This document shows positions 16,824 through 61,345 of a stretch of 64,000 nt of DNA, one piece after another. Both the position numbers and the translations under genes were made by a program. Each line of letters begins with the position of its first letter. The first letter of the stretch is position 1. The notes below the pieces were generated by a model. The model searched no databases. It was not told the origin of the DNA and worked only from the letters and a program-made list of their open reading frames with translations. This DNA comes from Thermodesulfovibrionia bacterium (lineage in GTDB: Bacteria > Nitrospirota > Thermodesulfovibrionia > UBA6902 > BMS3Bbin08): positions 59,577 to 123,576 of the forward strand of contig JAUXYI010000079.1 of NCBI GenBank assembly GCA_030694425.1, given 5' to 3'.

Positions 16824-16922
16824 AATCAAAATGTAAAATGCAAACATCAAAATTAAGGAATTTTATTATTAAATTATTTTCTTCCGAAATTTTAATTTTT
16901 GATTTTTAATTTTTGATTTTTT
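16822..16922. repeat. Period-7 A-rich/T-rich inverted-arm spacer element
   Basis: A-rich heptads then AAAATTAAGGAA...TTCC then T-rich heptads; same layout at 19.2, 34.1 and 61.4 kb. Confidence 0.7.
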
Positions 16923-16924
16923 GT

Positions 16925-18145
16925 TTACTTATCCGTAAGCGCTGCAAGACCTGGTAATTCCTTCCCTTCCAGGAGCTGAAGGGCTGCGCCGCCGCCTGTT
17001 GAAATAAATGACATGCTTTCAGAAACACCCGACCTGCTTACTGCAAGGTCTGTATCGCCTCCGCCGACTATTGTGAGAGCATACGCATCAGCAACCGCAT
17101 GTGCGACTGCGAAAGTCCCGCGAGAAAAGGCATCTACCTCAAATACCCCCATCGGGCCGTTCCACAATATGGTTTTTGCATTAGCTATTGCTGCTGTAAA
17201 GAGCTTAACTGAAGCGGGGCCAATGTCAAGAGCCTTCCAGTTGTTTGGTATTTCCTGCACAGGAACAATCTTGGTCTCAACGCCGTATTCAACGCTTTGT
17301 GCAATAACACAATCTACAGGAAGATAAAACTTTATCCCCTTTGAAATAAGTTTTTCCATTATATTTTTTGCAATGCCAATCATATCATCTTCAACAAGTG
17401 AGTCTCCAACAACATAGCCCATTGCCTTTAAAAAGGTATATGCCATGCCTCCGCCTATTATTACCTTATCAACCTTGTTTTCAATGTTGATAAGAACCCC
17501 TATTTTACCGGATACTTTTGCACCGCCTAAAATGGCAACAAAAGGTCTTACAGGGCTATCAACAGCGCCTTTAAGGTACTCTATCTCTCTCTGCAGGAGG
17601 AACCCCGCAGCGGCGGGGAGAAATTTTGTAATCCCGACTATAGAGGCATGCGTCCTGTGAGCAGCCCCAAAGGCATCGTTAATATAGTAATCTGCCAGCT
17701 TTGCCAGAGATTTACTGAATTCTTCATCATTTTCTTCTTCTTCTTTGTGAAATCTTAAGTTTTCAAGCAATATGATATCCCCTTCGGACATCTTGCTTAC
17801 TGCTTCCTCAACTTCCGGACCAATGCAATCAGGCAGAAAAATTACCTCTTTCTTAATCAGGCGCTGAAGCCTTTTTGCAACTGAGCCAATGCTGTAGCGT
17901 TTATCCACAGCGCCCTTGGGCCTTCCTAAATGCGAGGCTAATATTATCTTTGCACCTTCATCAACTGCATAATTTATAGTCGGCAGCGTAGAGCGAATCC
18001 TTTTATCATCTGTAATATTAAGGTTCTCATCTAAAGGGACGTTAAAATCAACCCGTATAAAAAGACGTTTCCCTTTAATGTTCAAATCTCTTAGAGAAAG
18101 CTTGTTTAAAACCCCTTTGATAGGTATTGAATAATTATTCCCCAT
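16925..18145 (-). CDS. pgk: Phosphoglycerate kinase
   Basis: RVDFNVP, SHLGRP, GGAKVS, STGGGA. Confidence 0.98.
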   Translation of the reverse strand: MGNNYSIPIKGVLNKLSLRDLNIKGKRLFIRVDFNVPLDENLNITDDKRIRSTLPTINYAVDEGAKIILASHLGRPKGAVDKRYSIGSVAKRLQRLIKKEVIFLPDCIGPEVEEAVSKMSEGDIILLENLRFHKEEEENDEEFSKSLAKLADYYINDAFGAAHRTHASIVGITKFLPAAAGFLLQREIEYLKGAVDSPVRPFVAILGGAKVSGKIGVLINIENKVDKVIIGGGMAYTFLKAMGYVVGDSLVEDDMIGIAKNIMEKLISKGIKFYLPVDCVIAQSVEYGVETKIVPVQEIPNNWKALDIGPASVKLFTAAIANAKTILWNGPMGVFEVDAFSRGTFAVAHAVADAYALTIVGGGDTDLAVSRSGVSESMSFISTGGGAALQLLEGKELPGLAALTDK

Positions 18146-18150: not shown

Positions 18151-19510
<1,360 letters not shown>

Positions 19511-19512
19511 GT

Positions 19513-20070
19513 TTATACTTCCATTAGTTCTTTTTCTTTATGAGAATTGATTTCGTCAGTCCTTTTTATATAGGAATCCGTTAGTTTTTGTATTTCTTCC
19601 AGCGTTTTTTTGGCGTCGTCTTCGCTCATCTTTTTTTCTTTTTCCAATTTTTTAACTTCATCATTGGAATCCCTACGAATGTTTCTTACAGCTATTTTTG
19701 CTTCCTCAACCCTTTTATGCACCTGCTTTATAATTTGTTTCCTTCGTTCTTCAGTAAGAGGAGGAATGGCTATTCTTATAATCTTCCCGTCATTAGAGGG
19801 ATTCAAGCCGAGGTCGGATTTTAAAATCGCTTTTTCTATTTCCGCAATAATTTTTGGATCCCAGGGTTGTATTATAATCAAGCGGCTTTCCGGGACAGAC
19901 ATTGTTGCTACCTGATTAATCGGGGTTGGCGTCCCATAATAGTCAACTGTTATCCCCTCAAAAATACCCAGTGATGCACGTCCGGTTCTGATGCCTGCAA
20001 TGTCCTTTTTAAGCGATTCAATTGCCTTGTCCATCCTGTCTACAAGCTGTTTTCTTACTTCCCCCTGCAT
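19513..20070 (-). CDS. frr: Ribosome recycling factor
   Basis: [20 protein letters not shown]. Confidence 0.97.
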
Positions 20071-25977: not shown

Positions 25978-26041
25978 AAAATTTATTGAAAATTTATCTT
26001 CTTAATTATACAGGATAAGAGATAAATATTTTCTTAGCCTT

Positions 26042-29000
26042 TCATTCTTTTATTACTTTTACCATTATATCCCCAAACCCTGGCATTCCGCTGAAACTGG
26101 AGATATTTGAAGGATCAAAGAGCTCATTAATATTTGGAGTATATTCTGCTATGCTATTCATAAACCCGATTCCAGAGGCATTTTGACCTCCGGGACCAAA
26201 GGCGGTTTTGATAACACCAGGCATCACTTCTTCTGTTAAAAATGCTTTACCTTTAATAGATTTTTTTAATGGGTTTTCCAGAATTACAATGTCCCCGGTT
26301 TTTATACCAAGCTTTTCTGCCTCATTCTCGTTAAATGCAAAAACAGGGATTGAGATGCTCCCCGCATTAAAAGATACCTCTTCATTATCAGGAAAACTGT
26401 ATTTGTTAGGAATGTCTTTGAGTTCGGGCATGGTGTATTTAAAATCATTGTTTAATGGCTGCATGCACTCTGTTTTTGTTTCTGCAAGATACGAACAGAT
26501 TGTTGTCATTGTCATTGCATAATGAACCCTTCCGCTTATTAATTGAAACGGATACTTCTTGCTGATATCCTTATAAGAAAGATTTTTTGGATTCCATTTA
26601 CACTCTGACCAGTAAAAAGTAATTGGAAAATCTGTTCTAAATTTTTTATTAATATTTTCAAGATAACTGAATTTAAATTCAAACTTTTTTGAGTTAGTTT
26701 TTGGATATATGCCAGATGGAGAGCCGCCTGATTTTTTATACCTGTAATAACTTGCAGGCCATATTGCCACGCCGTGATGTTTTCTTAACCAGTCAACCGT
26801 AAGGTATTCTCCCTGTTTTATCACTTTTTCATCCAATATTGCTGTTGGATTATCCGGTGTTCCTATTATCAAAGCGCCCTCTGGAAACTCAGGATATGGA
26901 AGAGGTTTGCCGATATTGTAAAATCCTGGGGCTTCACTCAGTATCTCATTTATAAAATCTTCCTCATTTTTATATCTTTTATTAAAATCCTCTGTCTTGA
27001 TGTCTGAATCGCCATTTTTTATAAGCGCATCAGACAGAGCAATCATAATCTCAAAAGGTGTTTTAGATTCATAAAGAGGCTTTATAACCTGATCCCTGAT
27101 GGCTACTTCAGGGCTCATTGTATAGACATCGCTCAACCCCATTCTTTCAAGAAAACCTGCTTCAGGAAGCACGATGTCTGCATATTTGCCTGTCACGGTT
27201 ATATGTGTATCTATGAATACGATTAATTCTAATTTGTACTCCGAAAATACTCCTAAATACCCCTCACCCTTGCCCTCTCCCACAAGGGGAGAGGGGACTT
27301 CATCTTTTATCTCCCCTCCCTTGACAGGAGAGGATGTAGGGGAGAGTGAGAGGGGATTATTTTTATTGTTATTCTTGTATTTCATAGTTAATGCATCTAT
27401 CCAGTCAGATGTATTGCCTGCGGTTACAACAGGATTTCCTGCCCTTGTTATAAAGGCCCTGACAGGATAGTTATAGCCTTTAAACGATCCGTATTTTAAT
27501 TTTATTCCCTGCCTTATTTTCTCGGGCAAATCAGACAACACGCCTTTCACTGTAGAAGGATAATCTCCGTAGGTGTCTTTGTTAAGCTCTGAAATTTTTC
27601 CTGAAACATCATTCCCGTTTATTTTTCTGATGACCATTTTTTCAAGAAATTCTTTCCCTATTGTCTTATTCCCCTTTTTTACCTTTTGAGATTCTATGAA
27701 TACAAGCCCGCCAGGGTTATCTATATTGCCTGTTAAAAGACAGAGCGCTGTCATGAGTATTGACGTAACATCTCCATCTGTATGATGAGATGCACCGTGC
27801 ATTCCGATTTCAATTGCTGCCGGTTTTGTAATCCCGAACAAGTGCGATACTTTTTTTATGTCATTTATGGAGATACCTGTTTTTTCTTCTGCCCACTCAG
27901 GCGTAAAAAAGAATAGATTATTAGATGGGTCTTTTCTTTCTGTGTACGAGAGGAATGCCTCTTTAAATTCTTTCCAGCCTGTTGTGTATTTTTCAAGAAA
28001 ATCATGGTCAATATATTTTGTCGAAGCGACTCTCCGCGAAGACTCGTTCCGAGCTGAAGGATTATCAGGCGAGTCATTTTTAATAATGTAATAAAGCATT
28101 GCTGCAAGCAGCGCTGCATCTGTTCCCGGTCTTATCGGGAGCCATATATCTGCATGGGCAGCGGAATTTGTATAAGCAGGGTCAGCTACAATATACATAC
28201 ATCCATTTTCATTTTTTGCCCCGACAATGCCATATGACATATAGTTAAATCTTGTTGCAACAAAAGGATTAACTCCTATGTTTAAAACAAGTCTTGCATC
28301 ATGCCTGGTTTTAAGATATGCCTCTCCTGAATCATTTCTCATAAGAACAGGCCTTTGGATATCAGGAAGAGGTCTCTCATCTCCCATCATAATGCCCTGC
28401 CCCCATCTGCGGTTAGAGTCGCAGATACTGCCGTGGTGATAAATATTAGGGGTGCCAAATGCGTGGAACAGCCTGTAATAAGCCTCTCTGTCGGTAACAT
28501 CACCTAAATCAAGAAATACTGCCTCGGGACCGAATTCTTTTTTGATTTTTAATAACTTTTTTGCAATGTACTGAGCAGCCTCATCCCACGTAATGGGCTT
28601 CCATTTATCTTCGCCTCGTTGTCCTGTTCTCATCAAAGGCGTCTTAATCCTGTGAGGTGAATATGTTAACTGAAGCCCTGAGGCGCCCTTTGCACAGAAT
28701 GCGCCGTTATTTATCAGTGTATGGGAATTCCCGTATATTTTTTTTGCAATGCCGTTTTCTACAAGCACCGAAATGCCGCATTCAGAAGGACACATGACAT
28801 CAGAGGTATAGATTAATACACCCTCCCCCTCACCCCCTCCCATCAAGGGAGGGGGGAATTTAAAGACATCCTCCTCACCTTGGTGGAAAGGTCTTTTACC
28901 ATCTACCCTCTCCCCTTGCGGGAGAGGGTCAGGGTGAGGGGAGGCACTGGTTATCTCATAATTTTTTAATAGGGAACTGCTAACATCGCCTTTAAATACA

Positions 29001-29542
29001 TAAAAAACTACAGGATATGTTCCGAGTTCAGGACTGAGCGTCTTTATCTGGCTTTTTTTAAGGGCAATTGCTATCTCGCTCTTTGCATCATTAATATCGC
29101 CAAACATAATCGCCTTTCCCATACAACTCTGCACGCAAACCGGTGACAGCCCTTTTATTATCCGGTTATAGCAAAAATCGCATTTCTCAGCCTGTCCTGT
29201 GAATCGGTCTATTTCAATTGCATTGTATGGGCACTTTTCATAGCATATCCCGCAGCCTGTGCATTTATTATTGTTTATTATGACAACGCCATCCTGATTT
29301 TTAAAAAGGGCTTTTTCTTCACATGATTCGATACACGGGGCATTATCACAATGATTGCAGAGCCTCGGAAGGAAAAATTTCTTGACAGCAGGGTATTTGC
29401 CTGATTGATATGTTTCAACTCGGCATCTGAAAGTTCCGAATGGAATGTCATATTCTGCCTTGCATGTTACCTGACACGCATAACACCCGATACATCGGTT
29501 AAGGTTAATCAACATCCCATATCTTTTTTGATAATTTGTCAT
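26042..29542 (-). CDS. Molybdopterin (DMSO reductase family) oxidoreductase with N-terminal 4x[4Fe-4S] ferredoxin domain
   Basis: DmsB/NrfC-type Cys clusters, FCAKG..PHRIKTPL, HGSICD, ADIVLP, C-terminal dinucleotide-binding region. Confidence 0.88.
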   Translation of the reverse strand: MTNYQKRYGMLINLNRCIGCYACQVTCKAEYDIPFGTFRCRVETYQSGKYPAVKKFFLPRLCNHCDNAPCIESCEEKALFKNQDGVVIINNNKCTGCGICYEKCPYNAIEIDRFTGQAEKCDFCYNRIIKGLSPVCVQSCMGKAIMFGDINDAKSEIAIALKKSQIKTLSPELGTYPVVFYVFKGDVSSSLLKNYEITSASPHPDPLPQGERVDGKRPFHQGEEDVFKFPPPLMGGGEGEGVLIYTSDVMCPSECGISVLVENGIAKKIYGNSHTLINNGAFCAKGASGLQLTYSPHRIKTPLMRTGQRGEDKWKPITWDEAAQYIAKKLLKIKKEFGPEAVFLDLGDVTDREAYYRLFHAFGTPNIYHHGSICDSNRRWGQGIMMGDERPLPDIQRPVLMRNDSGEAYLKTRHDARLVLNIGVNPFVATRFNYMSYGIVGAKNENGCMYIVADPAYTNSAAHADIWLPIRPGTDAALLAAMLYYIIKNDSPDNPSARNESSRRVASTKYIDHDFLEKYTTGWKEFKEAFLSYTERKDPSNNLFFFTPEWAEEKTGISINDIKKVSHLFGITKPAAIEIGMHGASHHTDGDVTSILMTALCLLTGNIDNPGGLVFIESQKVKKGNKTIGKEFLEKMVIRKINGNDVSGKISELNKDTYGDYPSTVKGVLSDLPEKIRQGIKLKYGSFKGYNYPVRAFITRAGNPVVTAGNTSDWIDALTMKYKNNNKNNPLSLSPTSSPVKGGEIKDEVPSPLVGEGKGEGYLGVFSEYKLELIVFIDTHITVTGKYADIVLPEAGFLERMGLSDVYTMSPEVAIRDQVIKPLYESKTPFEIMIALSDALIKNGDSDIKTEDFNKRYKNEEDFINEILSEAPGFYNIGKPLPYPEFPEGALIIGTPDNPTAILDEKVIKQGEYLTVDWLRKHHGVAIWPASYYRYKKSGGSPSGIYPKTNSKKFEFKFSYLENINKKFRTDFPITFYWSECKWNPKNLSYKDISKKYPFQLISGRVHYAMTMTTICSYLAETKTECMQPLNNDFKYTMPELKDIPNKYSFPDNEEVSFNAGSISIPVFAFNENEAEKLGIKTGDIVILENPLKKSIKGKAFLTEEVMPGVIKTAFGPGGQNASGIGFMNSIAEYTPNINELFDPSNISSFSGMPGFGDIMVKVIKE
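27258..27365. repeat. GC-rich palindromic element in frame in the molybdoenzyme
   Basis: CCCTCACCC..CCCTCTCCC..GGGAGAGG hairpins; translates as NNPLSLSPTSSPVKGGE..PSPLVGEGKGEG. Confidence 0.8.
28819..28943. repeat. GC-rich palindromic element in frame at the ferredoxin/catalytic junction
   Basis: CCCTCCC..GGGAGGG and CCCTCTCCC..GGGAGAGGG hairpins; SPHPDPLPQGER..PPPLMGGGEGEG. Confidence 0.8.
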
Positions 29543-29627
29543 GTTAATAGTTTAACGCATTTTAATTAAAGATGAATAAAGAAAATCAATTCTTTTTACA
29601 AGCTGAGATATATCATAACGCGGAAAT

Positions 29628-29663
29628 ACGCTGCTCCGCCCTTTCAGTTACATTTCAGTAACC
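29628..29663 (-). promoter_or_regulatory. Possible ops/JUMPstart-like element
   Basis: Minus strand GGTTAC-TGAAAT-GTAACT hairpin then GGGCGGAGCAGCGT, just downstream of a NusG paralog. Confidence 0.4.
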
Positions 29664-29760
29664 TACAGGGCTTATATCGTAATGCGTAAACAGTGAAAAA
29701 ATTCTTTTAATCTATTTGTCCATTACTCATTACGCTGTACGCATCACGCGCGCATTACGT

Positions 29761-30279
29761 TTAAATTTTCTCCACATCTGCAGCATCTATTGTAAGGGCT
29801 ACTCCTTGGCGTAAAACATCTACGGAAAGCACAAGCAAGTGTTTATCAAGTTTTTCAACAAGTATCCCTTCAACTCCCTTGAGAGGCCCGCCTTTAATTC
29901 TTACCCTTTGTCCTTTGTCAATATATGGATAAGGGTCAAGGGCTTCTTTGTTTTCCATAAGTCTTTTTAGTGAATTTATCTGTTCGTCAGGAATGGGGTC
30001 CGGGTCTTCCGGTAAAGAGCTTAGAAGCCTGACAACTCCTTTTATTTTCAGGACACTCAACCTTTCCTGTGCGCTTTTAGATATGCGAACAAACAGATAA
30101 CCAGGGAAAAGAGGGAATGTAATTAATTTTTTCCTGTCTTTCCATCTCCTGAGTCTTTCCACAATCGGCAGAAAGGCCTCAATTTGTTTCTTATTAAGCC
30201 TTTCATAGACCTGAAACTCATGTCTTGATTTTACATATACTGCATACCATTTATGTTCTAATGTTTCTACCTGTTCCAT
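29761..30279 (-). CDS. NusG paralog, UpxY/RfaH-type antiterminator
   Basis: WYAVYVKSRHE, PLFPGYLFV NGN domain, KOW (GQRVRIKGGPLKG). Confidence 0.9.
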   Translation of the reverse strand: MEQVETLEHKWYAVYVKSRHEFQVYERLNKKQIEAFLPIVERLRRWKDRKKLITFPLFPGYLFVRISKSAQERLSVLKIKGVVRLLSSLPEDPDPIPDEQINSLKRLMENKEALDPYPYIDKGQRVRIKGGPLKGVEGILVEKLDKHLLVLSVDVLRQGVALTIDAADVEKI

Positions 30280-30304
30280 TTACCTCCCTCTACGAGTCAT
30301 TGAC

Positions 30305-30895
30305 TCAGAGTGAATGAATCTTATCCATATCAGCGCCAAGGTTTTTCATTCTCTGTTTTTCTTTTTCAGTATTAAAAGAAGTAAGTAATATTGCATCGTA
30401 ATTTAAAGCAGGAAAGTCCTCAAATGAATATACATCATGCCCAAAAAATCCTTTTTCTACCCTTTTGCTGTCAACAATGCCAACAAGCTTAAGCGGCAAA
30501 CCGCGCATAGAGACATAAGATAATTCTGCAACCTCTCCATCGCCCCAGATAATGATGTTTTCTACTCCGGAGGAAATCATTTTCTTATAAATATCATCAA
30601 TTCTCTCACGTATATCCTTGAAATAGTTCATTGAATATTGCATATATTCATAAGTAAGCCGTACTTTTTCAGTAAAGCCTTTTGGAGTGAGGATATATTT
30701 AGCCCTGTTCTTAGGTATAGTGGTAATTTTTATGAATCCCTTTTTTGTTAAACGTTTTATATATGCATTTATCAGACCAAGTGCAACGTCGAGTTTGCTG
30801 GAAAGGGTTCGCTGTGTAACTGAGGACTCTTTGCTTATCTCATCAAGAATCCTCAATGTAATGTCATTATGCCTGTTTGTCTCAAGCTTGTTCAT
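30305..30895 (-). CDS. MarR-type winged-helix regulator (EPS-associated type) with C-terminal Rossmann-like domain
   Basis: TQRTLS..LGLIN..YILTPKG; IIIWGDGEVAE. Confidence 0.8.
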   Translation of the reverse strand: MNKLETNRHNDITLRILDEISKESSVTQRTLSSKLDVALGLINAYIKRLTKKGFIKITTIPKNRAKYILTPKGFTEKVRLTYEYMQYSMNYFKDIRERIDDIYKKMISSGVENIIIWGDGEVAELSYVSMRGLPLKLVGIVDSKRVEKGFFGHDVYSFEDFPALNYDAILLTSFNTEKEKQRMKNLGADMDKIHSL

Positions 30896-30996
30896 ATTAT
30901 GAACATCATAGTAAGTTTAGATTTTTTTGTCAAGGTTTTAAAAAAAATTGTAATATAATAAAATATAACCGTAATTAACTTGGATAAAAAATAATC

Positions 30997-31779
30997 ATGA
31001 ACCCTTCTACAAAAATTAAAATCATTCAATACCGTAATGGCTTATCTTCTGAAACATCAGACGATGTTGCTTCAGAAAAAAGGCTGAAACTCTTTTCAAA
31101 TAATAAGGAAGTCCTCAGTTTGCTGTGCACCCCAACAATGGTAAAGGAACTAATTGTAGGCTTTAGCCTTTCAGAAGGGCTTCTTAGACATGATAACGGT
31201 GAACTGCAATCAGCGTGGTGTTCAGAAAGGATGGAAATCCTGTGGAAAGATGAAGAGATAGAGGTGCACCTGCCTATAGATATACCAGAAACAACCGCAA
31301 CTCTGACATCAGGCTGTGCAAAAGGCGTGACTTTTATGATGAATAAAGAAATGCCTATACTCCGGGATGATTTTAAAATCAGCATTAGCGCAATTTTTGA
31401 ACTCTATAGAGAGTTCCAGAAGATGTCAGAGCTTTTCAGGGCAACAGGCGGGGTTCACAGTGCAGCGCTCTGTGATGAAAAAGAGATACTCGCCTTTGCA
31501 GAAGACATCGGAAGACATAATGCTGCGGACAAAATAATAGGCTATGCCTTTCTTGAAAACATACCAATGCAGGATAAAATGCTGCTTTTAAGCGGAAGGC
31601 TTTCTTCAGAAATAGTTAATAAGGCAGTAAGAGCACAGGTACCGATGCTTATCAGCCGAGCAGCCCCTACTGACATGGCAGTAGAGATTGCAAATAAATA
31701 CAGGGTTACTCTGATTGGCTTCCTGCGAGGGCATCAGCTGAACATCTATACCAATCCGGAAAGAGTCAAAACAGATTAA
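30997..31779 (+). CDS. fdhD: Formate dehydrogenase accessory sulfurtransferase
   Basis: TSGC, FRATGGVH, EDIGRHNA, SGRLS. Confidence 0.92.
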   Translation: MNPSTKIKIIQYRNGLSSETSDDVASEKRLKLFSNNKEVLSLLCTPTMVKELIVGFSLSEGLLRHDNGELQSAWCSERMEILWKDEEIEVHLPIDIPETTATLTSGCAKGVTFMMNKEMPILRDDFKISISAIFELYREFQKMSELFRATGGVHSAALCDEKEILAFAEDIGRHNAADKIIGYAFLENIPMQDKMLLLSGRLSSEIVNKAVRAQVPMLISRAAPTDMAVEIANKYRVTLIGFLRGHQLNIYTNPERVKTD

Positions 31780-32414
31780 GCAGACCTTACGAACTCTATC
31801 TTATACATCTCCCGTACCTTTTTAAAAATGTCCAGATACTCCTGCGTTCTAAAGTCGGGATAAGTATAGGGTAAAGTTTGATAATTCTTGCCCGAGTAGA
31901 TAAGTGTCACCTCTCCATAGATGCCGTTGCCGAGATAAATCCTGTGGGAGAAATCTTTTGTTGATACTAAAACTATCTTTGCTGAATCTAAATAGCCGGG
32001 GTCAAGATTAATCCTTCTTCTTCCTTTTTCCCCTATAAATTCCCTTCTGCCTCCTTCTTTCAAATCCCCCCTTCCCCCCTTTTCTAAAGGGGGGTGAGGG
32101 AAGGTTATTGGGTGGATGGGGGGATTATTTTCATTGAGATATTGTCTTTCAAATTCATTTGTTTTTAATTTTATTTCAGCAATTGACTCAGGATTTATTA
32201 ATTTCTGGAAAAAGACAAACTGTCTTTTTAATCCTGAACCCATTTCCTTTGAATAATAATCAGTATGATTCCACTCCCAGACAGGGCTTTCCATATCTGA
32301 AGGACCAAAGATACCTTCAATATCGCCCTTAAGTTTTTCAAAGAGAGAAATATCGTTTGAAAGCATCCCGACGAATAGCTTGACTGGATGGGGATTATCG
32401 CATCTTTCATTCAT
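31776..32414 (-). CDS. DUF4416 family protein with an in-frame repeat insertion
   Basis: HTDYYSKEMG, RRINLDPGY, KDFSHRIYL, YPDF. Confidence 0.85.
   Translation of the reverse strand: MNERCDNPHPVKLFVGMLSNDISLFEKLKGDIEGIFGPSDMESPVWEWNHTDYYSKEMGSGLKRQFVFFQKLINPESIAEIKLKTNEFERQYLNENNPPIHPITFPHPPLEKGGRGDLKEGGRREFIGEKGRRRINLDPGYLDSAKIVLVSTKDFSHRIYLGNGIYGEVTLIYSGKNYQTLPYTYPDFRTQEYLDIFKKVREMYKIEFVRSA
32038..32135. repeat. GC-rich palindromic element in frame in the DUF4416 gene
   Basis: CCCCCCTT..AAGGGGGG hairpin; NENNPPIHP..PPLEKGGRGD. Confidence 0.8.
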
Positions 32415-32475
32415 AAATTAAAAATCAAATATTAAAAATCAAAAATACATATCAAAATGTAAAATTAGATAATTA

Positions 32476-32613
32476 TTGACTCCTGCATAAATAATGTCCG
32501 CTGTTATGTCATTCCGTGCTTGACACGGAATCCAGTTTTTTCCTCTGGATTCCTGCTTCCGCAGGAATGACGACGATACTGTGAACGTAGGACATTAATA
32601 TTACAGGTATCAA
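32476..32613. mobile_element. MITE-like element with TA flanks (IS630-like) and REP cargo
   Basis: TTGACTCCTGCATAAATAATGTCC...GGACATTAATATTACAGGTATCAA imperfect inverted ends, TA on both sides, internal GTCATTCC..CTGGATTCC..GAATGAC. Confidence 0.65.
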
Positions 32614-32720
32614 TAGTTGTCAGGGGTCGGTTTTCAGTTGTTAGTTAATAACTGAACACTGGTCCCTGACCACTGATAACTATCTTTGAGTTTTGATTTG
32701 TCATTTTGCATTTTTATTTT

Positions 32721-33539
32721 TTACTTTTGATATTGCTTTTCTGGCTGGCATACCTTAACGCAAAGACCGCATATGTACTGGCCTACATTATGCGCTTTTG
32801 CAAAATATTTTAATTTCTCAAGACAGGCTGCTTTATCCCATTCCCTATAATTTTCTTTAATTGCAGACACAGGGCAGATTTCTATGCATTTGGTGCAACT
32901 GCCGCAGCCATTCTCTCTTATTAATTCTTTGGCACCCACCTTAATCAATTTACTATTAAGGTCGTTAGTAAAGTCAGATGGAACACCCTCCCTTTCATCC
33001 CCTCCCGTTAAGGGAGGGGGGATTAAATAACCCTCTCCCCCTGCTGGAGAGGGCAGGGGTGAGGGGGGATTGTTTGTTTTAAGAGGCATATCTGTAAGAA
33101 CTGTTGCAAGCCTTATTTTGGAGCCGAATTCAGGATGCACCAGCAGGTTGTTCCTTCCAATCCATCCAATACCCGCCCTCAATGCAATCATCTTATGCGA
33201 GAGATGGGCAGTCTGTTTTTCCCAGTCAATAATTTGGCTCGCTGGTATTGGAAGCGCATTATATCCCCTTTCCTGGATGGCAAGTGTAAGTTTTAATGCG
33301 GTCTGGTCAAGAAGTAAATTAAGCATTTTGTAATGGTGCAGGTAATGGCGTGTAGGACCAACTATGACACCTCTTAGAACAGAATCAGAAACCCTTACAC
33401 CAATTGAAATTCCATGGGATAAGCCCTCTGTCTGCTCTAAAGAAAGAGCATCAAAATGATTTCTTAAATCATCTATCCTGCCTGCGCCAAATGCAGAAGC
33501 CCCCGATGAAAGAGCTATCTCCTTCAATTCATCATACAT
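32721..33539 (-). CDS. QueG/reductive dehalogenase-like 2x[4Fe-4S] protein with an in-frame insertion
   Basis: SHK..AGIGWIGRNNL..PEFGS.IRL, CGSCTKCIEICP, CGLCVKVC. Confidence 0.8.
   Translation of the reverse strand: MYDELKEIALSSGASAFGAGRIDDLRNHFDALSLEQTEGLSHGISIGVRVSDSVLRGVIVGPTRHYLHHYKMLNLLLDQTALKLTLAIQERGYNALPIPASQIIDWEKQTAHLSHKMIALRAGIGWIGRNNLLVHPEFGSKIRLATVLTDMPLKTNNPPSPLPSPAGGEGYLIPPPLTGGDEREGVPSDFTNDLNSKLIKVGAKELIRENGCGSCTKCIEICPVSAIKENYREWDKAACLEKLKYFAKAHNVGQYICGLCVKVCQPEKQYQK
32985..33075. repeat. GC-rich palindromic element in frame in the QueG-like gene
   Basis: CCCTCCC..GGGAGGG and CCCTCTCC..GGAGAGGG; NNPPSPLPSPAGGEG..PPPLTGGDEREG. Confidence 0.8.
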
Positions 33540-33584
33540 ACGTTACTTATGCCTCTGTGCCTTTGTGCCTTCCTTATGCTTCCT

Positions 33585-34100
33585 TTACAGCCACTTTTCA
33601 ATTAAAGCCATTGCTTCAGGGGCATCCCAATCTCTTGGTCCGACTATCTTCTCTCTTATGATACCGTTTTTGTCTATTATAAAAGTCTCTGGAACGCCTG
33701 TTATGCCGTATTGACCTGCAACTTCATTGTCATTGCCTATAAGTGTAGGATAACTGACCTTTTGCCGCTGAAAATAGGAAATCAGGTTGTTGGGATTATC
33801 CCGGAAGAGTATTCCGAGCATCTGTAATGGCTTGTCCTGCACTTTCATATACAGATTTTCTAATGAACGCTTTTCTGATTTACATACTGAACACCAGGTA
33901 GCCCAGAAATTTACAAGGACAACTTTTCCCTTAAGGTCAGAAAGTTTCCAGAGATTCCCATCAGCATCTTTTAGTTCAAACGCTGGTGCAGGCACACCAA
34001 CAGAAGCAATCTTTTTATATGTTCTCTTTTCAGGAAGAAATAACAGCAGAGCAACTGCAATAGCTATCAGGACTACCATAATAAGACCCTTATATTTCAT
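33585..34100 (-). CDS. TlpA/ResA-family thiol-disulfide oxidoreductase
   Basis: N-terminal TM, NFWATWCSVC, GVPET. Confidence 0.9.
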   Translation of the reverse strand: MKYKGLIMVVLIAIAVALLLFLPEKRTYKKIASVGVPAPAFELKDADGNLWKLSDLKGKVVLVNFWATWCSVCKSEKRSLENLYMKVQDKPLQMLGILFRDNPNNLISYFQRQKVSYPTLIGNDNEVAGQYGITGVPETFIIDKNGIIREKIVGPRDWDAPEAMALIEKWL

Positions 34101-34111
34101 TCAAACCTCCA

Positions 34112-34286
34112 AAAAATTCAAAAATCAAAAACTGTGGAGTAAATAACTCAAAACTCAAATGTCAAAAGTCATCCCGATTGTTCGGGACAAAACCATAAAG
34201 CTTTAAGTTTTAAGGTTGTAGTTTTGAGCTTTGCGTTTTGAACTTTAAGCTATTAAAATAATTCCTTAATTTTGCATTTTAACTTT
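34112..34286. repeat. Period-7 spacer element (inverted homolog of 19170-19510) carrying a mini-hairpin
   Basis: 31-bp identity and a second matching block with the 19.2-kb copy; TCCCGA-TTGT-TCGGGA at 34172-34187. Confidence 0.8.
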
Positions 34287-34330
34287 GTCTATAATCATTT
34301 TAACCCAAACAACATTTTTTGTGGATATTG

Positions 34331-34801
34331 TTACAGGGGTTTCAACAGGCATACTGCCTGCGCTGCCATGCCTTCACCGTTTCCGATAAAACCCATTTTT
34401 TCATTAGTCTTGGCTTTTATATTAATCAAATTTAATGGTATCCCTGTTTTTGAAAGGTTTTCCTTTATTTTATTTATGAATGGTTCAAGTTTTGGTTTCT
34501 CCGCTATAATTGTTGTATCAATCCATAATATTTCAAAGTTATTTTTTCTAATCAGTTCCACAGTTTTTGAAAGAAGCTCAATGCTTGATGCATCCTTCCA
34601 CTTTGCATCTGTGTCAGGAAAATGTTTTCCTATATCACCTAAGCCAAGCGCCCCTATTATCGCATCTATTATTGCATGGCACAGTACGTCAGCATCAGAA
34701 TGTCCCGTCAGTCCTTTCTCAAAAGGAATTTCCACGCCGCCGAGTATAAGCTTTCTTCCTTCAACAAGCCTGTGTGAATCATAACCAAGCCCGATTCTCA
34801 T
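34331..34801 (-). CDS. ispF: 2-C-methyl-D-erythritol 2,4-cyclodiphosphate synthase
   Basis: [22 protein letters not shown]. Confidence 0.97.
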
Positions 34802-34845
34802 AATCTTCTCATTTTCCTCTTTCTACCTGAAAATACCTTTTTATA

Positions 34846-34954
34846 ACACACCCCCAAACCCCTCTTAATAGAGGGGAGTTCTAATGTTTCCCCTATGACC
34901 TTATAGGGAAGTCCTTATGTATCCCCTCTAAAAAGAGGGGATTAAGGGGTGTGT
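34846..34954. repeat. Intergenic GC-rich palindromic element
   Basis: ACACACCCC...GGGGTGTGT ends enclosing CCCCTCT..AGAGGGG hairpins. Confidence 0.8.
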
Positions 34955-34973
34955 ATTCCTTTGTGTTGACTTG

Positions 34974-35744
34974 TCAGCATGATTGTTTCATTTTTACAGT
35001 AAGTAAATATTCCATTAAATCCATATCCTCTGGTGTGGTAATTTTTATATTAAAAGGACTGCCTGCGATAATTTTTATCTTACCCCCTATTCTCTCAACA
35101 AGGGCTGCATCATCTGTTGCATAGAAGCCGTCTTTATATGCCCTGTCATAAGCTTTCTTGATTATTTTATATTGAAAAACCTGCGGTGTTTGAATCGCCC
35201 AGTATTTTTCCCTTTTTACAGTTGAAAGCACATATCCTCTATTATTAATTTCCTTTAAAGTTTCTTTCACGGGCAGTCCCGGAATAACACCGTTCACCCC
35301 TTTTATCTCATTCAACAGTCTTTTAACTAACTCTGCGGAAACAAGAGGTCTTACTCCATCATGGATTAAAATCAAGCATCCATTTTGCTTTTTCCCTTTT
35401 TTACAATCCCCCCTTAACCCCCCTTTATCAAATGGGTGGACGGGGGGATTATTTTCAATTAAGCATAATGCATTATAGACTGAATCCTGCCTTTCCTGAC
35501 CACCGCGGGCAATTTGTTTTACCTTGTTAATGTTATATGATTTAATGAGCTTAAGCCCCTTCCTGAAATCTTCTTCTCTCAGTACAGGGATAATTTCTGT
35601 AATAGACTTTATTCCCTGAAGCCTTTTTAATGTATAGATGAAAACTGGTATGCCTGCAATATGAGCAAAAGTTTTTCTTACAGAAGGGTTAAATCTTTTT
35701 CCAAGTCCGGCAGCCGGGACAATGGCAATTACATTTGTTTTCAT
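34974..35744 (-). CDS. ispD: 2-C-methyl-D-erythritol 4-phosphate cytidylyltransferase with an in-frame insertion
   Basis: AAGLGKR, GGQERQDS, IHDGVRP, QTPQ, NIKITT. Confidence 0.95.
   Translation of the reverse strand: MKTNVIAIVPAAGLGKRFNPSVRKTFAHIAGIPVFIYTLKRLQGIKSITEIIPVLREEDFRKGLKLIKSYNINKVKQIARGGQERQDSVYNALCLIENNPPVHPFDKGGLRGDCKKGKKQNGCLILIHDGVRPLVSAELVKRLLNEIKGVNGVIPGLPVKETLKEINNRGYVLSTVKREKYWAIQTPQVFQYKIIKKAYDRAYKDGFYATDDAALVERIGGKIKIIAGSPFNIKITTPEDMDLMEYLLTVKMKQSC
35405..35458. repeat. GC-rich palindromic element in frame in ispD
   Basis: ENNPPVHPFDKGGLRGD; shares GGGTGGAYGGGGGGATTATTTTCA with the DUF4416 insert. Confidence 0.8.
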
Positions 35745-36748
35745 CAGTGTCTTGCCATCTTTAGTTCTTCCCTCTCTGCCTCTTCCTTAAGCTTCGTAAA
35801 TATCATTCTGCCGGCGGTTGTCTGCAGCACACTTGTTACAACCACATCAGCATTTTTATTTATAAGCCTTCTTGCATTATCAACAACCACCATTGTGCCG
35901 TCTTCAAGATAAGCAACGCCCTGGTTAGATTCCTTGCCCTCTTTAATTATAAAGACATTCATAGTCTCTCCGGGCAAGACCACAGGCTTAAGCGCACTTG
36001 CAAGTTCGTTAATGTTGAGCACTGAAACTCCCTGCAGCTCAGCTACTTTATTAAGATTAAAATCATTGGTTATTATTTTGGCGCTGATCATCTTGGCTAA
36101 AGCAACTAATTTGGCATCTACTTCTTTTATTTTCGGAAAATCTTCATCTATAATTTTTACTGTAATATTCTGCATCTTCTGGATTTTGTGCAAAACATCC
36201 AGCCCCCGCCTTCCCCTTCCCCTTTTTAATGAGTCAGCAGAGTCTGCTATATGCTGAAGCTCCTGCAAAATGAACTGCGGCAGTATGAATGTTCCCTCTA
36301 AAAATCCCGCCTCGCATACATCAGCTATCCTGCCATCTATTATGACGCTGGTATCAATTATATTGGGATTTTCCGCTCCCCCCCTGCCCTTAACGGCTCT
36401 AAATAAGTCTGACAACTCAAGTCCCCGCCCTTTTTTCATTCCTAAAAACAAGCCTGTGTAGCCAAATAGCGTATTGAGTATAACAGGGATGTAAAAGCTG
36501 TCTATGTTGTTAAAAAGAGCCTTTACAGGATAATAAATCAATTTTGAGAACAAGAGACCTATAGCCAGTCCTAACAACCCGCCAAAAATCGTACCCGCAT
36601 TTATCCTGCTGAACAGAAATTCCAAAATAAGTCCGAGCACGCCGATTCCCGCACCTAATACAGCTCCAGGATAAAGCATGCCCTCTTTCATACCTATTAA
36701 AGAACCGCCCACTGCGAATATTAATAAAAAAATAAGCCTCGGAATCAT
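35744..36748 (-). CDS. PIN/TRAM domain membrane protein (YacL-like)
   Basis: TM N-terminus, DTSVIIDGRI, TNDFNL, GVAYLEDGTMVV. Confidence 0.92.
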   Translation of the reverse strand: MIPRLIFLLIFAVGGSLIGMKEGMLYPGAVLGAGIGVLGLILEFLFSRINAGTIFGGLLGLAIGLLFSKLIYYPVKALFNNIDSFYIPVILNTLFGYTGLFLGMKKGRGLELSDLFRAVKGRGGAENPNIIDTSVIIDGRIADVCEAGFLEGTFILPQFILQELQHIADSADSLKRGRGRRGLDVLHKIQKMQNITVKIIDEDFPKIKEVDAKLVALAKMISAKIITNDFNLNKVAELQGVSVLNINELASALKPVVLPGETMNVFIIKEGKESNQGVAYLEDGTMVVVDNARRLINKNADVVVTSVLQTTAGRMIFTKLKEEAEREELKMARH

Positions 36749-36766
36749 TATTCTTTATTCCCCTTT

Positions 36767-38233
36767 CTAAGAATGCGCCTTAAGGGCAGCATAAAATTTT
36801 CTTTCACCCCGATTAATAAATAAAAGTATAGAATCCCCTTCTTTTGCGCGGGAAACTATATTATTAAAATCTCTTAAATTAGTTACTGTTTTTTTATTTA
36901 TTTCCTGAATTACATCGCCTTTTTTAAGTCCCGCCTCCTCTGCCGCGCTGTCAGATTCAACCTTGATTATGACAACTCCTTTCTCATCCCGTGAAAGCCC
37001 GAGCTGTTTTGCTATTTCCTGGGAGAGGGCAATTACAGTAAAACCCGCAAACACATTTTCTTCGTCCATTTCTTTCTCTGATTTTTCAATAGATGTCTCT
37101 TGCATCTCCTTGGGGAGTTCTGAAACTTTTGCGGTAAGAGAAATGGGTTTGCCTTCCCTTATGATTTTTATTGTTATACGGCTCCCTACCTCACTCTGAG
37201 CTACTATGTTTCTAAGCGATTCAGCATCATTTACTGTCTTACCGTTAACCTCAAGGATTACATCACCCCTTCTCAAGCCTGCTTTCTCAGCAGGGCTTCC
37301 TTTCAGGATATCACTGACAACCGCTCCTTTGCCGTTTTTAAGCCCGAACTCTTTAGCAAGGTCAGGAGTAATACTCTGAATCGTTACGCCAAGCCATCCC
37401 CTCGTAACCTTCCCCCCTTTCACAAGCTGTTTCATCACTGATTCAGCCATATTGCTCGGAACCGCAAAACCTATGCCCTGATAGCCGCCTGTTCTTGAGA
37501 AAATTGCTGTGTTTATTCCGATAAGTTCTCCTTTTATATTGACCAGAGGTCCTCCTGAGTTGCCGGGGTTTATAGCTGCATCAGTTTGGATAAAGTCCTC
37601 GTAATCAGCAATACCTACATTTGCCCTTCCGACCGCGCTTACTATCCCCATGGTAACTGTGTGGCTAAAACCATAGGGATTGCCGAAAGCGAGCACAAAT
37701 TCGCCGACCTGAAGGTTATCTGAATTCCCCCACTTTACTGCAGGAAGGTCTTTAGCGGAAATTTTTATGATTGCTATGTCTGTCTTCGGGTCTGAACCAA
37801 TAATTTTACCCTTGTAATCCTGTTTATCGTATAGAGTAACTTTTATTTCATCCGCTTTTTCCACCACATGGTAGTTTGTAATTATATAGCCGTCGGAAGA
37901 AACTATAACCCCTGAACCAAGACTGCGTTCTTTCCATTTTTTCGGTATACGAAACTGCTCAAAAAAATCTTCAAATGGGTCAAAGGGATGTGAAAAAGGT
38001 GAAATATCCCTCCTTATTGTTTTTGTAGTTGATATATTTACAACAGTTGGACCAACAGCCTTGACTATGTCGGAAAAAGCCGCGCTTTCACCTGTGACCG
38101 ACCGAGGGACCTGAGGGATATAAGCTGGCGGATAGAAACTTGATTTAGGTGAAAAAATTTCCAGATTGCTTCCAATCAAATAGCCAGCGAATATAGAAAC
38201 TACGATTATAAATATAATTGTTTTTTTGCTCAT
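36767..38233 (-). CDS. DegP/DegQ (HtrA) serine protease with two PDZ domains
   Basis: TNYHV, QTDAAINPGNSGG. Confidence 0.95.
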   Translation of the reverse strand: MSKKTIIFIIVVSIFAGYLIGSNLEIFSPKSSFYPPAYIPQVPRSVTGESAAFSDIVKAVGPTVVNISTTKTIRRDISPFSHPFDPFEDFFEQFRIPKKWKERSLGSGVIVSSDGYIITNYHVVEKADEIKVTLYDKQDYKGKIIGSDPKTDIAIIKISAKDLPAVKWGNSDNLQVGEFVLAFGNPYGFSHTVTMGIVSAVGRANVGIADYEDFIQTDAAINPGNSGGPLVNIKGELIGINTAIFSRTGGYQGIGFAVPSNMAESVMKQLVKGGKVTRGWLGVTIQSITPDLAKEFGLKNGKGAVVSDILKGSPAEKAGLRRGDVILEVNGKTVNDAESLRNIVAQSEVGSRITIKIIREGKPISLTAKVSELPKEMQETSIEKSEKEMDEENVFAGFTVIALSQEIAKQLGLSRDEKGVVIIKVESDSAAEEAGLKKGDVIQEINKKTVTNLRDFNNIVSRAKEGDSILLFINRGERKFYAALKAHS

Positions 38234-61342: not shown

Positions 61343-61345
61343 AAT

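What the first reader, a model, noticed from the sequence alone, without database searches (positions are those of the whole stretch)
27234..35458. GC-rich palindromic elements inserted in frame in several proteins, four with the same 'NNP' entry
Seen: related hairpin elements lie inside the molybdoenzyme (about 27258-27365 and 28819-28943), the DUF4416 gene (32038-32135), the QueG-like gene (32985-33075) and the essential gene ispD (35405-35458). A free relative lies between ispD and ispF (34846-34954). All preserve the reading frame. Four begin with AAYAAT-CCCC on the coding strand in the same frame (KNNPL, ENNPP, TNNPP, ENNPP) and give Pro/Gly-rich peptides such as PSPLVGEGKGEG and PPLEKGGRGD. 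The 27.3-kb insert is bounded by TTGTA repeats 141 bp (47 codons) apart. Known: Rickettsia palindromic elements behave similarly. Inference: a distinct family adds loops to proteins here, or is removed at the RNA level.
Basis: partly seen in the sequence, partly recalled or inferred. Interest (0 to 1): 0.75.

Follow-up and report, generated by a model that had tools for sequence, protein, structure and literature searches.

The report
Hairpin repeats translated inside working genes
Small GC-rich hairpin repeats, some nearly identical to the BoxC "triplex" repeats of E. coli, sit in frame inside many intact genes of this groundwater bacterium and appear to be translated as floppy extra loops.

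Summary
All six elements are at the stated places, and the five inside genes keep their frames open. Most orthologs lack the inserts: 10 of 11 for ispD, 10 of 13 for DUF4416, 11 of 13 for the QueG-like gene.

They belong to a genome-wide superfamily: 217 perfect C-arm/G-arm hairpins in 172 clusters, against 0 per Mb in a control. 82 clusters lie inside long open frames. None of 14 candidate flanking-ORF pairs is a split gene.

The "NNP entry" is the element end AAT-CCCC read in one frame. It occurs in 10 of 82 in-frame clusters.

Two units match the published TM_ECO/BoxC consensus and are about 90% identical to E. coli copies. The 44-nt C6/G6 subfamily occurs in 70 of 301 Nitrospirota genomes and in other phyla. 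In this genome 75% of its copies lie inside genes; 64% is expected at random.

Relatives carry different subfamilies at the same loops.

Small DUF559 endonuclease genes are bracketed by these hairpins (28 of 30 loci). That makes DUF559 a candidate partner enzyme.

Removal at the RNA level is unsupported. No RNA data exist.

This scan has noted the phenomenon before, on this genome and others.

The parts
26042..29542 (-). Host gene 1. A fused Fe-S subunit and molybdopterin oxidoreductase, 1166 aa, carrying three in-frame inserts.
   Evidence: ORF and translation. Pfam finds Fer4_11 at 54-149, Molybdop_Fe4S4 at 250-295 and Molybdopterin at 298-631. NCBIfam matches (PhsA-like, TtrB-like) all fall below their cut-offs.
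27258..27365 (-). Element E1. Two hairpin units in inverted order, read as NNPLSLSPTSSPVKGGEIKDEVPSPLVGEGKGEG. The unit at 27261-27295 matches the TM_ECO/BoxC consensus.
   Evidence: Sequence; TM_ECO regex hit. The net insert is 42 codons against the two insert-free same-family orthologs. Six of nine orthologs carry other elements at this site.
28020..28052 (-). A 33-nt (11-codon) in-frame insert, read as SARNESSRRVA.
   Evidence: Contigs of all 4 runs laid skip it. It is absent in 9 of 9 orthologs, and two other copies exist in the genome. Its fold is no better than shuffles.
28816..28943 (-). Element E2. A composite of two hairpin units with terminal inverted repeats and a 50-nt spacer. It lies in the linker between the Fe-S and molybdopterin parts. 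The unit starting at 28906 matches the TM_ECO/BoxC consensus.
   Evidence: It is 88-99% identical to copies in 4981 of 5426 E. coli genomes. The linker is about 20 residues longer than in the 9 orthologs aligned.
31776..32414 (-). Host gene 2, a DUF4416 protein of 212 aa.
   Evidence: Pfam PF14385, E 2.3e-57, matched in two stretches.
32025..32126 (-). The 102-nt (34-codon) insert in DUF4416. The nested palindrome AATCCCCCC...GGGGGGATT is at 32063-32126. The other 39 nt (32025-32063 side) are not palindromic.
   Evidence: Contigs of runs X2 and X3 join 32024 to 32127. 10 of 13 orthologs have no insert; G012 and G014 carry their own C6/G6 elements at the same site.
32721..33539 (-). Host gene 3, an Fe-S protein of 272 aa, only weakly QueG-like.
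   Evidence: Pfam Fer4_16. NCBIfam QueG scores 59 bits against a cut-off of 200.
32983..33072 (-). A 90-nt composite element read as NNPPSPLPSPAGGEGYLIPPPLTGGDEREG. It sits inside a net insert of about 49 codons, just before the first Cys motif.
   Evidence: Ortholog matches break at residues 158 and 209. 11 of 13 orthologs have no insert; G012 and G014 have their own.
34846..34954 (.). Intergenic copy between ispD and ispF. Outer inverted repeats ACACACCCC/GGGGTGTGT enclose three hairpins.
   Evidence: Fold z-score -6.2. Other copies of this subfamily exist in the genome.
34974..35744 (-). Host gene 4, ispD, 256 aa.
   Evidence: NCBIfam TIGR00453 scores 200.8 bits against a cut-off of 181.3. 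Matches solved IspD structures.
35405..35453 (-). A decayed C6/G6 element in ispD (AATCCCCCC...GGGGGGATT, with part of the inner left arm lost). It is read as NNPPVHPFDKGGLRGD.
   Evidence: There are about 23 extra residues against solved IspD. The insert is absent in 10 of 11 orthologs. The model shows coil with pLDDT 43-45. Contigs of related strains span it without a gap.

Best explanation
The inserts are copies of a superfamily of short GC-rich hairpin repeats. Each unit has a C-rich box, 3 nt, then a hairpin with a C-rich arm and a G-rich arm. This is the layout of the BoxC / PIT / 'intrastrand triplex motif' (TM) repeats known from E. coli and many other bacteria.

Units occur in three forms: alone, as inverted pairs, and as a 44-nt nested palindrome (AAT-C6-N2-3-C6T3-N3-A3G6-N2-3-G6-ATT).

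The units come and go in the genome. Copies that land inside genes persist only if three conditions hold: the added length keeps the frame, the frame read has no stop, and the site is a loop or linker that tolerates about 15-50 extra Pro/Gly/Ser-rich disordered residues. Such copies are transcribed and translated with the gene. 'NNP' is simply the element end AAT-CCCC behind an A-rich host codon.

Shown here: family membership, insertion relative to orthologs, presence/absence between strains, reuse of the same loops, and the absence of disrupted genes.

Inferred: that the inserts are translated, and that they spread with the help of small DUF559 (Vsr-like) endonuclease genes. Those genes are bracketed by these hairpins, and each DUF559 clade has its own hairpin type.
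For: Family and abundance:
- 217 perfect hairpins in 172 clusters, against 0 per Mb in the control.
- 45 exact matches to the published TM_ECO consensus, and 0 when the pattern is read backwards. Two of the matches are in the window, in E1 and E2 (consensus from passages of PMC4666352).
- The E2 unit matches 4981 of 5426 E. coli genomes at 80-99% identity.

These are insertions, not old protein segments:
- ispD: 10 of 11 orthologs lack the insert.
- DUF4416: 10 of 13 lack it. QueG-like: 11 of 13 lack it.
- Molybdoenzyme site E1: the 2 full-length same-family orthologs lack it.

Turnover:
- Contigs of related strains join across the DUF4416 insert (2 of 4 runs) and across the 33-nt insert (4 of 4 runs). 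They span the ispD insert without a gap (2 runs).

Repeated hits at the same loops:
- Other hairpin subfamilies sit at the same loops in relatives: ispD in 1, DUF4416 in 2, QueG-like in 2, molybdoenzyme E1 in 6.

Frame use:
- 82 of 172 clusters lie in open frames of at least 150 codons, in 71 host frames.
- The C6/G6 hairpin is read as PPLxKGG in 33 clusters, PPFxKGG in 17 and SPxxKGG in 8. From the codons, the third frame mostly holds TAG, TAA or TGA.
- Of the 90 clusters outside long frames, 14 have same-strand open frames on both sides. 13 pairs were scanned with Pfam: 0 are halves of one family and 2 had no hits. The 14th pair is ispF/ispD.

Loop position:
- In the IspD model (mean pLDDT 76) the insert, residues 98-122, is coil at pLDDT 43-45 between helix 85-97 and strand 124-127.
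- E2 and the QueG-like insert lie between Pfam domains.

Partner enzyme:
- 3 of 3 DUF559 genes in this genome have such a hairpin within 200 nt. Two have one on both sides.
- Of 30 DUF559 loci in 16 genomes, 20 have hairpins on both sides and 28 on at least one side.
- That is 52 hairpins in 12,000 nt near the genes, against 3 in 68,981 nt further away in the same loci.
- In a tree of 22 DUF559 proteins, the clades match the hairpin types.
Against: - No RNA or protein data exist, so translation of the inserts is inferred.
- No target-site duplication and no fixed insert length were found. The C-to-G core is 37-41 nt, yet all gene copies are in frame, so the insertion chemistry is unknown.
- The DUF4416 and QueG-like inserts include 39 nt and about 55 nt of non-palindromic DNA that the model does not explain.
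- DUF559 is not needed for the repeats to be present. G012 and G014 carry many such inserts but gave no DUF559 match at E<=1e-10. The E. coli control genome did not ring for PF04480 although E. coli carries the repeats. No DUF559 gene of this genome is flanked by the C6/G6 subfamily.
- The match between DUF559 clades and hairpin types could reflect shared descent of whole cassettes, not recognition.
- The C6/G6 subfamily is not depleted in genes: 80 of 107 copies against 63.6% of random windows. Pure purifying selection on random insertions does not predict this.
Confidence: 0.75

Rival explanations
1. The elements are removed from the transcript by some splicing-like or processing step, so the proteins are made without the extra segments.
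For: The elements form strong hairpins, and hairpin inserts in ribosomal RNA are known to be cut out (recalled). No RNA run was available to exclude this directly.
Against: If the inserts were removed, frame and stop codons inside them would not matter. Yet all gene copies found are in frame and stop-free, and no gene interrupted by an out-of-frame or stop-bearing copy was found: 0 of 13 pairs scanned, 2 without hits. No Rfam family reaches its threshold, introns included; there are only weak miRNA-like hairpin matches. From general knowledge, cutting a bacterial mRNA hairpin leaves two pieces that are not rejoined.
Confidence: 0.03
2. The inserts are kept because they are useful. They might act as translation pause sites (a strong mRNA hairpin plus Pro-Pro motifs) at domain boundaries, as flexible linkers, or as DNA sites for a nuclease or recombination system. 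They would then not be merely tolerated selfish DNA.
For: The C6/G6 subfamily lies in genes at or above the random share: 80 of 107 against 63.6%, while other subfamilies show 32 of 111. The same loops are hit again and again in relatives. E2 and the QueG-like insert lie between domains. The 44-nt sequence is kept almost unchanged across phyla.
Against: Most orthologs, including same-family ones, work without any insert. Related strains lack the DUF4416 insert. Two different reading frames of the same DNA are used, so no single peptide is conserved. In four other genomes the share in genes is 10 of 16, about the random level.
Confidence: 0.12
3. The segments are old, lineage-specific protein loops that only look palindromic, or they are assembly artefacts of a metagenome bin.
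For: The genome is a 101-contig assembly, and repeats can mislead assemblers.
Against: Near-identical DNA copies occur between genes and in unrelated genes. Orthologs lack the segments. Contigs from runs of other studies carry the ispD insert and reach into E1 and E2. Only 5 of 172 clusters lie within 150 nt of a contig end.
Confidence: 0.02

Closest known systems
BoxC / PIT elements / TM_ECO intrastrand triplex motifs (Holder et al. 2015, PMC4666352; I read the abstract, passages, and sections 15 and 20)
   Same: The three-block layout is the same. Units in E1 and E2 fit the published consensus CCCTCNCCC-N3-6-GGGNGAGGG-N3-GGGNGAGGG, with 45 matches in the genome. They are about 90% identical to E. 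coli copies. Palindromic pairs, wide spread across bacteria and local instability are also reported in the paper.
   Different: In E. coli K-12 the 23 copies are stated to be always intergenic, and no partner gene is named; 'endonuclease' does not occur in the main text. Here about half of the clusters are in frame inside genes, several diverged subfamilies coexist, and DUF559 genes are bracketed by them.
Rickettsia palindromic elements (RPE; Ogata et al. 2000, seen only as described in the review PMC10969869, passages)
   Same: These are palindromic repeats inserted in frame into many unrelated, still working genes, adding peptide segments judged compatible with the fold.
   Different: The sequence is unrelated and the units are much shorter (36-48 nt against about 150 bp). 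There is no CGTC end tag. The host is free-living and the elements spread across phyla.
Intragenic REPs, GTAG- and CGTC-tagged, with RAYT/TIRYT transposases (Di Nocera et al. 2013, PMC3733652, passages)
   Same: These are small palindromes, often as inverted dimers, found inside genes in several species and encoding 20-30 residues. The paper also reports different REPs at about the same site of recB in two Xanthomonas species.
   Different: Our elements carry no terminal GTAG or CGTC tag. The 7 Y1-transposase genes of this genome are not flanked by these hairpins.
NTS/SRM hairpins with the Ssn GIY-YIG nuclease (Chenal et al. 2025, PMC11893778; abstract and sections 6, 7, 17)
   Same: The design is the same: a small nuclease gene bracketed by its own dispersed hairpin repeat. 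It is the best working analogy for the DUF559 cassettes.
   Different: The motif differs: 0 of the 6 elements match the SRM pattern. The nuclease family differs too. The small GIY-YIG genes here are flanked by ATTCCTGC...GCAGGAAT hairpins, not by the GC-rich elements.

Membership tests
BoxC / PIT / TM_ECO triplex-motif repeats | Three-block consensus CCCTCNCCC-N3-6-GGGNGAGGG-N3-GGGNGAGGG | tested here: met
   45 matches in the genome and 0 for the pattern read backwards. In the window, one unit of E1 and one of E2 match. The DUF4416, ispD, QueG-like and intergenic elements do not match exactly and count as diverged subfamilies with the same layout.
BoxC / PIT / TM_ECO triplex-motif repeats | Sequence likeness to the E. 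coli copies | tested here: met
   The 47-nt E2 unit matches 4981 of 5426 E. coli genomes, with a median of 5 places per genome and 80-99% identity. No annotated feature lies under the matches.
BoxC / PIT / TM_ECO triplex-motif repeats | Intergenic location (stated as 'always' for E. coli K-12) | tested here: not met
   82 of 172 clusters lie inside long open frames. This is a difference in habit, not in sequence.
BoxC / PIT / TM_ECO triplex-motif repeats | Folds into an intrastrand triplex as single-stranded DNA | not testable with these tools
   Only hairpin folding could be computed.
Rickettsia palindromic elements | Palindromic repeat inserted in frame in unrelated functional genes | tested here: met
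Rickettsia palindromic elements | CGTC tag at one end (RPE-4/6, per PMC3733652) | tested here: not met
   Of the 6 elements, one has CGTC and it is internal (ispD). None has it at an end. Likeness to RPE sequences was not tested, because no RPE sequence was on hand.
REP / REPIN with RAYT | GTAG tag at one end, and a Y1 transposase gene flanked by the repeats | tested here: not met
   GTAG occurs only internally, in E1 and E2. 0 of the 7 Y1_Tnp genes have such a hairpin within 600 nt.
SRM / Ssn (GIY-YIG) | SRM degenerate pattern, and a GIY-YIG gene flanked by the repeat | tested here: not met
   0 of the 6 elements match the SRM pattern. The flanks of the 8 small GIY-YIG genes showed other hairpins or none.
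MITE (classical) | Terminal inverted repeats plus a target-site duplication and a parent IS with a transposase | tested here: inconclusive
   Inverted ends are present: AAT...ATT in 28-30 of 30 copies. No duplication was found beyond a shared AT, which may be part of the ends. No parent IS was found. Instead, DUF559 cassettes carry the half-units.
Self-splicing introns or other known RNA families | Match to an Rfam model at its gathering score | tested here: not met
   There are 6 weak hairpin-type matches, all far below gathering score.

The most novel reading that the evidence does not exclude
The BoxC/triplex-motif repeats have been known for thirty years without a partner or a function. 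They may be the non-autonomous offspring of small 'hairpin - DUF559 endonuclease - hairpin' cassettes, with each nuclease clade matched to its own hairpin. One derived form, the 44-nt C6/G6 nested palindrome, would have become an element that lives mainly inside protein-coding genes across several phyla. Its features fit that habit: two of three frames are open in either orientation, it encodes a disordered Pro/Gly loop, and it lands repeatedly in the same permissive loops.
Probability: 0.4. Interest if true: 0.7.

Novelty: new variant of a known kind. Interest (0 to 1): 0.5.

Why it matters
In-frame selfish repeats are usually treated as a peculiarity of Rickettsia. Here a free-living groundwater bacterium carries them in at least 71 open frames, including the essential gene ispD. 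At least part of the family is the same repeat as E. coli BoxC.

This ties three separate literatures together: RPE, intragenic REPs and triplex motifs.

It also offers a natural map of loops that tolerate insertions in conserved enzymes.

Finally, it points to a testable partner enzyme, DUF559, for a widespread repeat class whose origin is unexplained. Gene callers and ortholog-based annotation will mis-measure such genes if the inserts are not recognised.

Tried and rejected
- RNA evidence: no RNA holder is listed for this DNA, so expression and retention of the inserts could not be tested.
- Structure of the QueG-like protein: the model has mean pLDDT 45.6 and is unusable. Nothing is read from it.
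- Fuzzy regex scan for decayed C6/G6 copies: it timed out and was replaced by an nhmmer profile.
- Y1 transposases (RAYT/TIRYT) as the mobiliser: 7 genes exist, but none has a GC hairpin nearby.
- Ssn/GIY-YIG as the mobiliser: the small GIY-YIG genes are flanked by a different hairpin.
- Search for an autonomous copy between distant AATCCCCC and GGGGGATT ends in this genome: 13 pairs lie 151-4000 nt apart. They were not examined further and nothing convincing emerged.
- Target-site duplication: none found; TTGTA is within chance.
- Literature by sequence strings (AATCCCCCC, GGGGGGATT, PLPQGEG, PPFSKGG, PPLTKGG, GGGAGAGGG): the three peptide strings had no occurrence among the 20 papers listed, and the DNA-string hits were unrelated.
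- Literature on Nitrospirota with palindromic repeats, MITEs or intragenic elements: nothing on this phylum.
- 'DUF559': 25 papers hold the term. None of the 22 listed (titles and abstract starts) deals with these repeats. Supplements of the papers were not opened. The ITxF tables of PMC4666352 may list intragenic copies that I did not see.
- A words look-up in earlier findings failed on a word limit and was not repeated.

Full report
**What is there.** The window lies on contig 51 of a 2.42-Mb, 101-contig, 39% GC assembly. Earlier notes of this scan call it an uncultured groundwater Nitrospirota of the class Thermodesulfovibrionia. I did not check the name directly. It agrees with the record titles of look-alike elements and with the groundwater runs that hold the DNA.

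The four host frames are intact on the minus strand:
- a fused Fe-S/molybdopterin oxidoreductase, 26042-29542;
- a DUF4416 protein, 31776-32414;
- an Fe-S protein that is only weakly QueG-like, at 59 bits against a cut-off of 200, 32721-33539;
- ispD, above its NCBIfam cut-off, 34974-35744.

The quoted peptides are correct.

**More than chance, and genome-wide.** A scan for perfect hairpins of at least 7 bp with a pyrimidine arm and a purine arm found 217 in the genome. A Markov control gave none per Mb. The hairpins group into 172 clusters.

Every unit has the same layout: a C-rich box, about 3 nt, then the hairpin. Units occur alone, as inverted pairs with the boxes outermost (E1, E2, the QueG-like element, the intergenic copy), or as a nested palindrome.

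The commonest nested form is AAT-C6-N2-3-C6T3-N3-A3G6-N2-3-G6-ATT. In 30 clean copies the C-to-G core is 38 nt in 19. AAT and ATT flank 28-30 of the 30. The DUF4416 and ispD elements belong to this form, and ispD's copy has lost part of its inner left arm.

**They are insertions.**
- ispD: 10 of 11 orthologs from related genomes lack the segment. Solved IspD structures align on both sides of a gap of about 23 residues.
- DUF4416: 10 of 13 orthologs lack it.
- QueG-like: 11 of 13 lack it.
- Molybdoenzyme site E1: the two full-length orthologs of the same family have 9 residues where this genome has 51.

The orthologs that do have extra residues at these sites carry other palindromic elements, of different subfamilies. 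These are G012 in ispD, G012 and G014 in DUF4416 and in the QueG-like gene, and six genomes at E1. So the same few loops have been hit independently. This points to very few permissive sites, to a target preference for the A-rich codons there, or to both. Di Nocera et al. report a similar coincidence for recB in Xanthomonas (passages).

**Turnover between strains.** No RNA run holds this DNA. Contigs of four DNA runs from four studies were laid on 26000-37000.
- Depth rises 10- to 100-fold over the elements, so they are common in those communities.
- Contigs of two runs span the ispD insert without a gap.
- Contigs reach into E1 and E2.
- Contigs of two runs join 32024 to 32127. That is a form without the 102-nt DUF4416 insert, whose right edge is exactly the outer end of ATT. 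The tool marks 'between: not known', so some caution is due.
- All four runs skip 28020-28052.

It is absent in 9 of 9 orthologs and has two other copies in the genome.

**Frames.** 82 of 172 clusters lie inside open frames of at least 150 codons with at least 30 codons on each side. They fall in 71 distinct frames, 11 of which hold two or more clusters.

The C6/G6 hairpin is read as PPLxKGG in 33 clusters, PPFxKGG in 17 and SPxxKGG in 8. From the codons, the third frame usually runs into TAG, TAA or TGA in the loop. Another subfamily is read as PLPQGEG in 11 clusters, although by my reading four of its six frames are open. So something beyond stop avoidance also shapes frame use.

'NNP' occurs in 10 of 82 clusters and 'xNP' in 40 of 82. 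It is AAT-CCC of the element end behind an A-rich codon. In DUF4416 the first N belongs to the host and the second to the element. On the coding strand the 10 nt upstream are 46% A, and A-runs upstream outnumber T-runs downstream 23 to 9. Selection against a terminator-like U-run, or against hydrophobic codons, would explain this. It is only a modest asymmetry.

**No broken genes.** Of the 90 clusters outside long frames, 14 have same-strand open frames abutting both sides. Thirteen pairs were scanned against Pfam. None is two halves of one family, 11 are clearly neighbouring genes with complete domains, and 2 gave no hits. The fourteenth pair is ispF/ispD. This argues against removal at the RNA level, which would leave out-of-frame and stop-bearing copies harmless and therefore common. 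Rfam gives nothing above threshold.

**Where the inserts sit in the proteins.** In the IspD model (12 sequences, mean pLDDT 76) the insert is coil with pLDDT 43-45, between helix 85-97 and strand 124-127. By inference from the fold, this is the face away from the HDGxRP active-site end of that strand. E2 lies between the Fe-S and molybdopterin parts, and the QueG-like insert lies just before the Fe-S domain. The QueG-like model was too poor to use.

**What family this is.** I tested both leads.

The published TM_ECO consensus (PMC4666352, passages) matches 45 places in this genome and none when read backwards. One unit each of E1 and E2 is among the matches. The E2 unit finds 4981 of 5426 E. 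coli genomes at 80-99% identity, with no annotated feature under the matches. So part of the family is literally BoxC. The other elements share the layout with changed blocks. In E. coli K-12 the paper states that the copies are always intergenic and names no partner. The intragenic habit here is the difference.

The elements do not fit three other families:
- the SRM pattern of the Ssn nucleases;
- GTAG- or CGTC-tagged REPs;
- repeats flanking the genome's GIY-YIG or Y1-transposase genes.

**A candidate partner.** All three DUF559 (PF04480) genes of this genome have such hairpins close by. Two of them have one on both sides.

In this genome and 30 relatives, 30 DUF559 loci from 16 genomes were examined. 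These are all the loci returned; 7 further matches came without a locus. Twenty have a perfect hairpin within 200 nt on both sides, and 28 on at least one side. That is 52 hairpins in 12,000 nt near the genes, against 3 in 68,981 nt further out in the same loci.

In gene orientation the cassette is hairpin + G-box, then the gene, then C-box + hairpin. In a tree of 22 of these proteins the clades coincide with hairpin types. One clade is flanked by the C6T3 hairpin of the 44-nt element.

Relatives are not independent, and cassettes may simply be inherited whole. G012 and G014 have inserts but no DUF559 match. The E. coli control genome has none. No DUF559 gene here carries the C6/G6 type. I therefore treat the enzyme link as a lead at about even odds. 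Searches of the held library found no paper linking DUF559 to these repeats (listings only).

**Spread, and a habit that is unusual.** The C6/G6 pattern occurs in 70 of 301 sampled genomes of the phylum, with none for the reversed control. The full 44-nt pattern occurs in records titled Nitrospinota, Methylomirabilota, Thermodesulfobacteriota/Deltaproteobacteria, Alpha-, Beta- and Gammaproteobacteria, Dehalococcoidia and an anammox planctomycete.

In this genome an nhmmer profile finds 107 copies, of which 80 (75%) meet the in-gene criterion. The same criterion is met by 63.6% of 4000 random 45-nt windows. Among the perfect clusters the figure is 50 of 61 for this subfamily, against 32 of 111 for the others. 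Contig ends do not explain it: 2 of 108 loci lie near an end. In four other genomes 10 of 16 sampled copies are in long frames.

So this subfamily is at least not excluded from genes. That is unlike repeats named for being extragenic, and simple purifying selection on random insertions does not predict it.

**Left unexplained.**
- No target duplication and no fixed insert length.
- The extra non-palindromic DNA inside the DUF4416 insert (39 nt) and the QueG-like insert (about 55 nt).
- The strong frame preference of the PLPQGEG subfamily.

**Verdict.** The kind is known: RPE, intragenic REPs, BoxC. This scan has reported it before, on this genome and on others. New here:
- the link of the in-frame inserts to BoxC;
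- the population-level presence and absence of inserts;
- the repeated use of the same loops by different subfamilies;
- the gene-dwelling habit of the 44-nt form;
- a tested association with DUF559.

Noticed in passing
window 28020-28052: A 33-nt in-frame insert in the molybdoenzyme gene, read as SARNESSRRVA. It belongs to a third small repeat family with two other genomic copies. It is absent in 9 of 9 orthologs and skipped by contigs of all four runs laid.
   Followed up: yes
window 32458-32681: The spacer between DUF4416 and the QueG-like gene holds a pair of GTCATTCC...GGAATCCAG / CTGGATTCC...GGAATGACG hairpins. By eye they resemble the NTS/dRS3 type, but the SRM regex did not match. Depth there is over 1000, and contigs of related strains skip about 220-233 nt.
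   Followed up: partly
window 16815-16925, 19166-19520, 32414-32480, 34121-34290, 48401-48452, 61338-61448, 63241-63292: AT-rich repeats built of 7-nt units (AAAATCA / AAAATGC types) occur as inverted blocks around AAGGAA in many intergenic spacers.
   Followed up: no
own genome outside the window: contig 51:10884-11738 and 29754-30686, contig 37:10919-11860, contig 14:31382-32323, contig 67:264-1112, contig 21:2893-3741: Six of the seven Y1-transposase genes (282-313 aa) are bracketed by GGGGTCAGGTCT / AGACCTGACCCC inverted repeats. This fits the GGGGWSAS motif of 'TIRYT' genes in PMC3733652. Most also have 7-nt tandem arrays directly downstream, which suggests a link between these genes and the heptamer arrays seen in coding regions.
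   Followed up: partly
window 32025-32062 and about 32925-32982: Next to the palindromes, the DUF4416 and QueG-like inserts contain 39 nt and about 55 nt of non-palindromic extra coding DNA, read as LKEGGRREFIGEK and VPSDFTNDLNSKLIKVGAKELI. Their origin is unknown. The first resembles the adjacent host codons (KGRRR).
   Followed up: no
L018 (ortholog of the molybdoenzyme in G030), E1 site: A different short palindrome, GGGCGGGTTTGAAACCCGCCC, read as GGFETRPY, sits at the same loop. It is another repeat family translated in frame.
   Followed up: no
own genome, e.g. contig 101:7690-7800, contig 48:69740-69813 and 144260-144337: Several C6/G6 elements inside genes are directly preceded by (CAGAACA)n-type heptamer arrays, read as QNTEHRT. 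The two repeat kinds therefore often insert or travel together.
   Followed up: no
window 26042-29542: The molybdoenzyme is a single-chain fusion of a TtrB/DsrO-like Fe-S subunit (residues 4-186) and a PhsA-like catalytic subunit (from residue 250). The fusion is conserved in the relatives, whose open frames run about 1090-1130 aa.
   Followed up: partly
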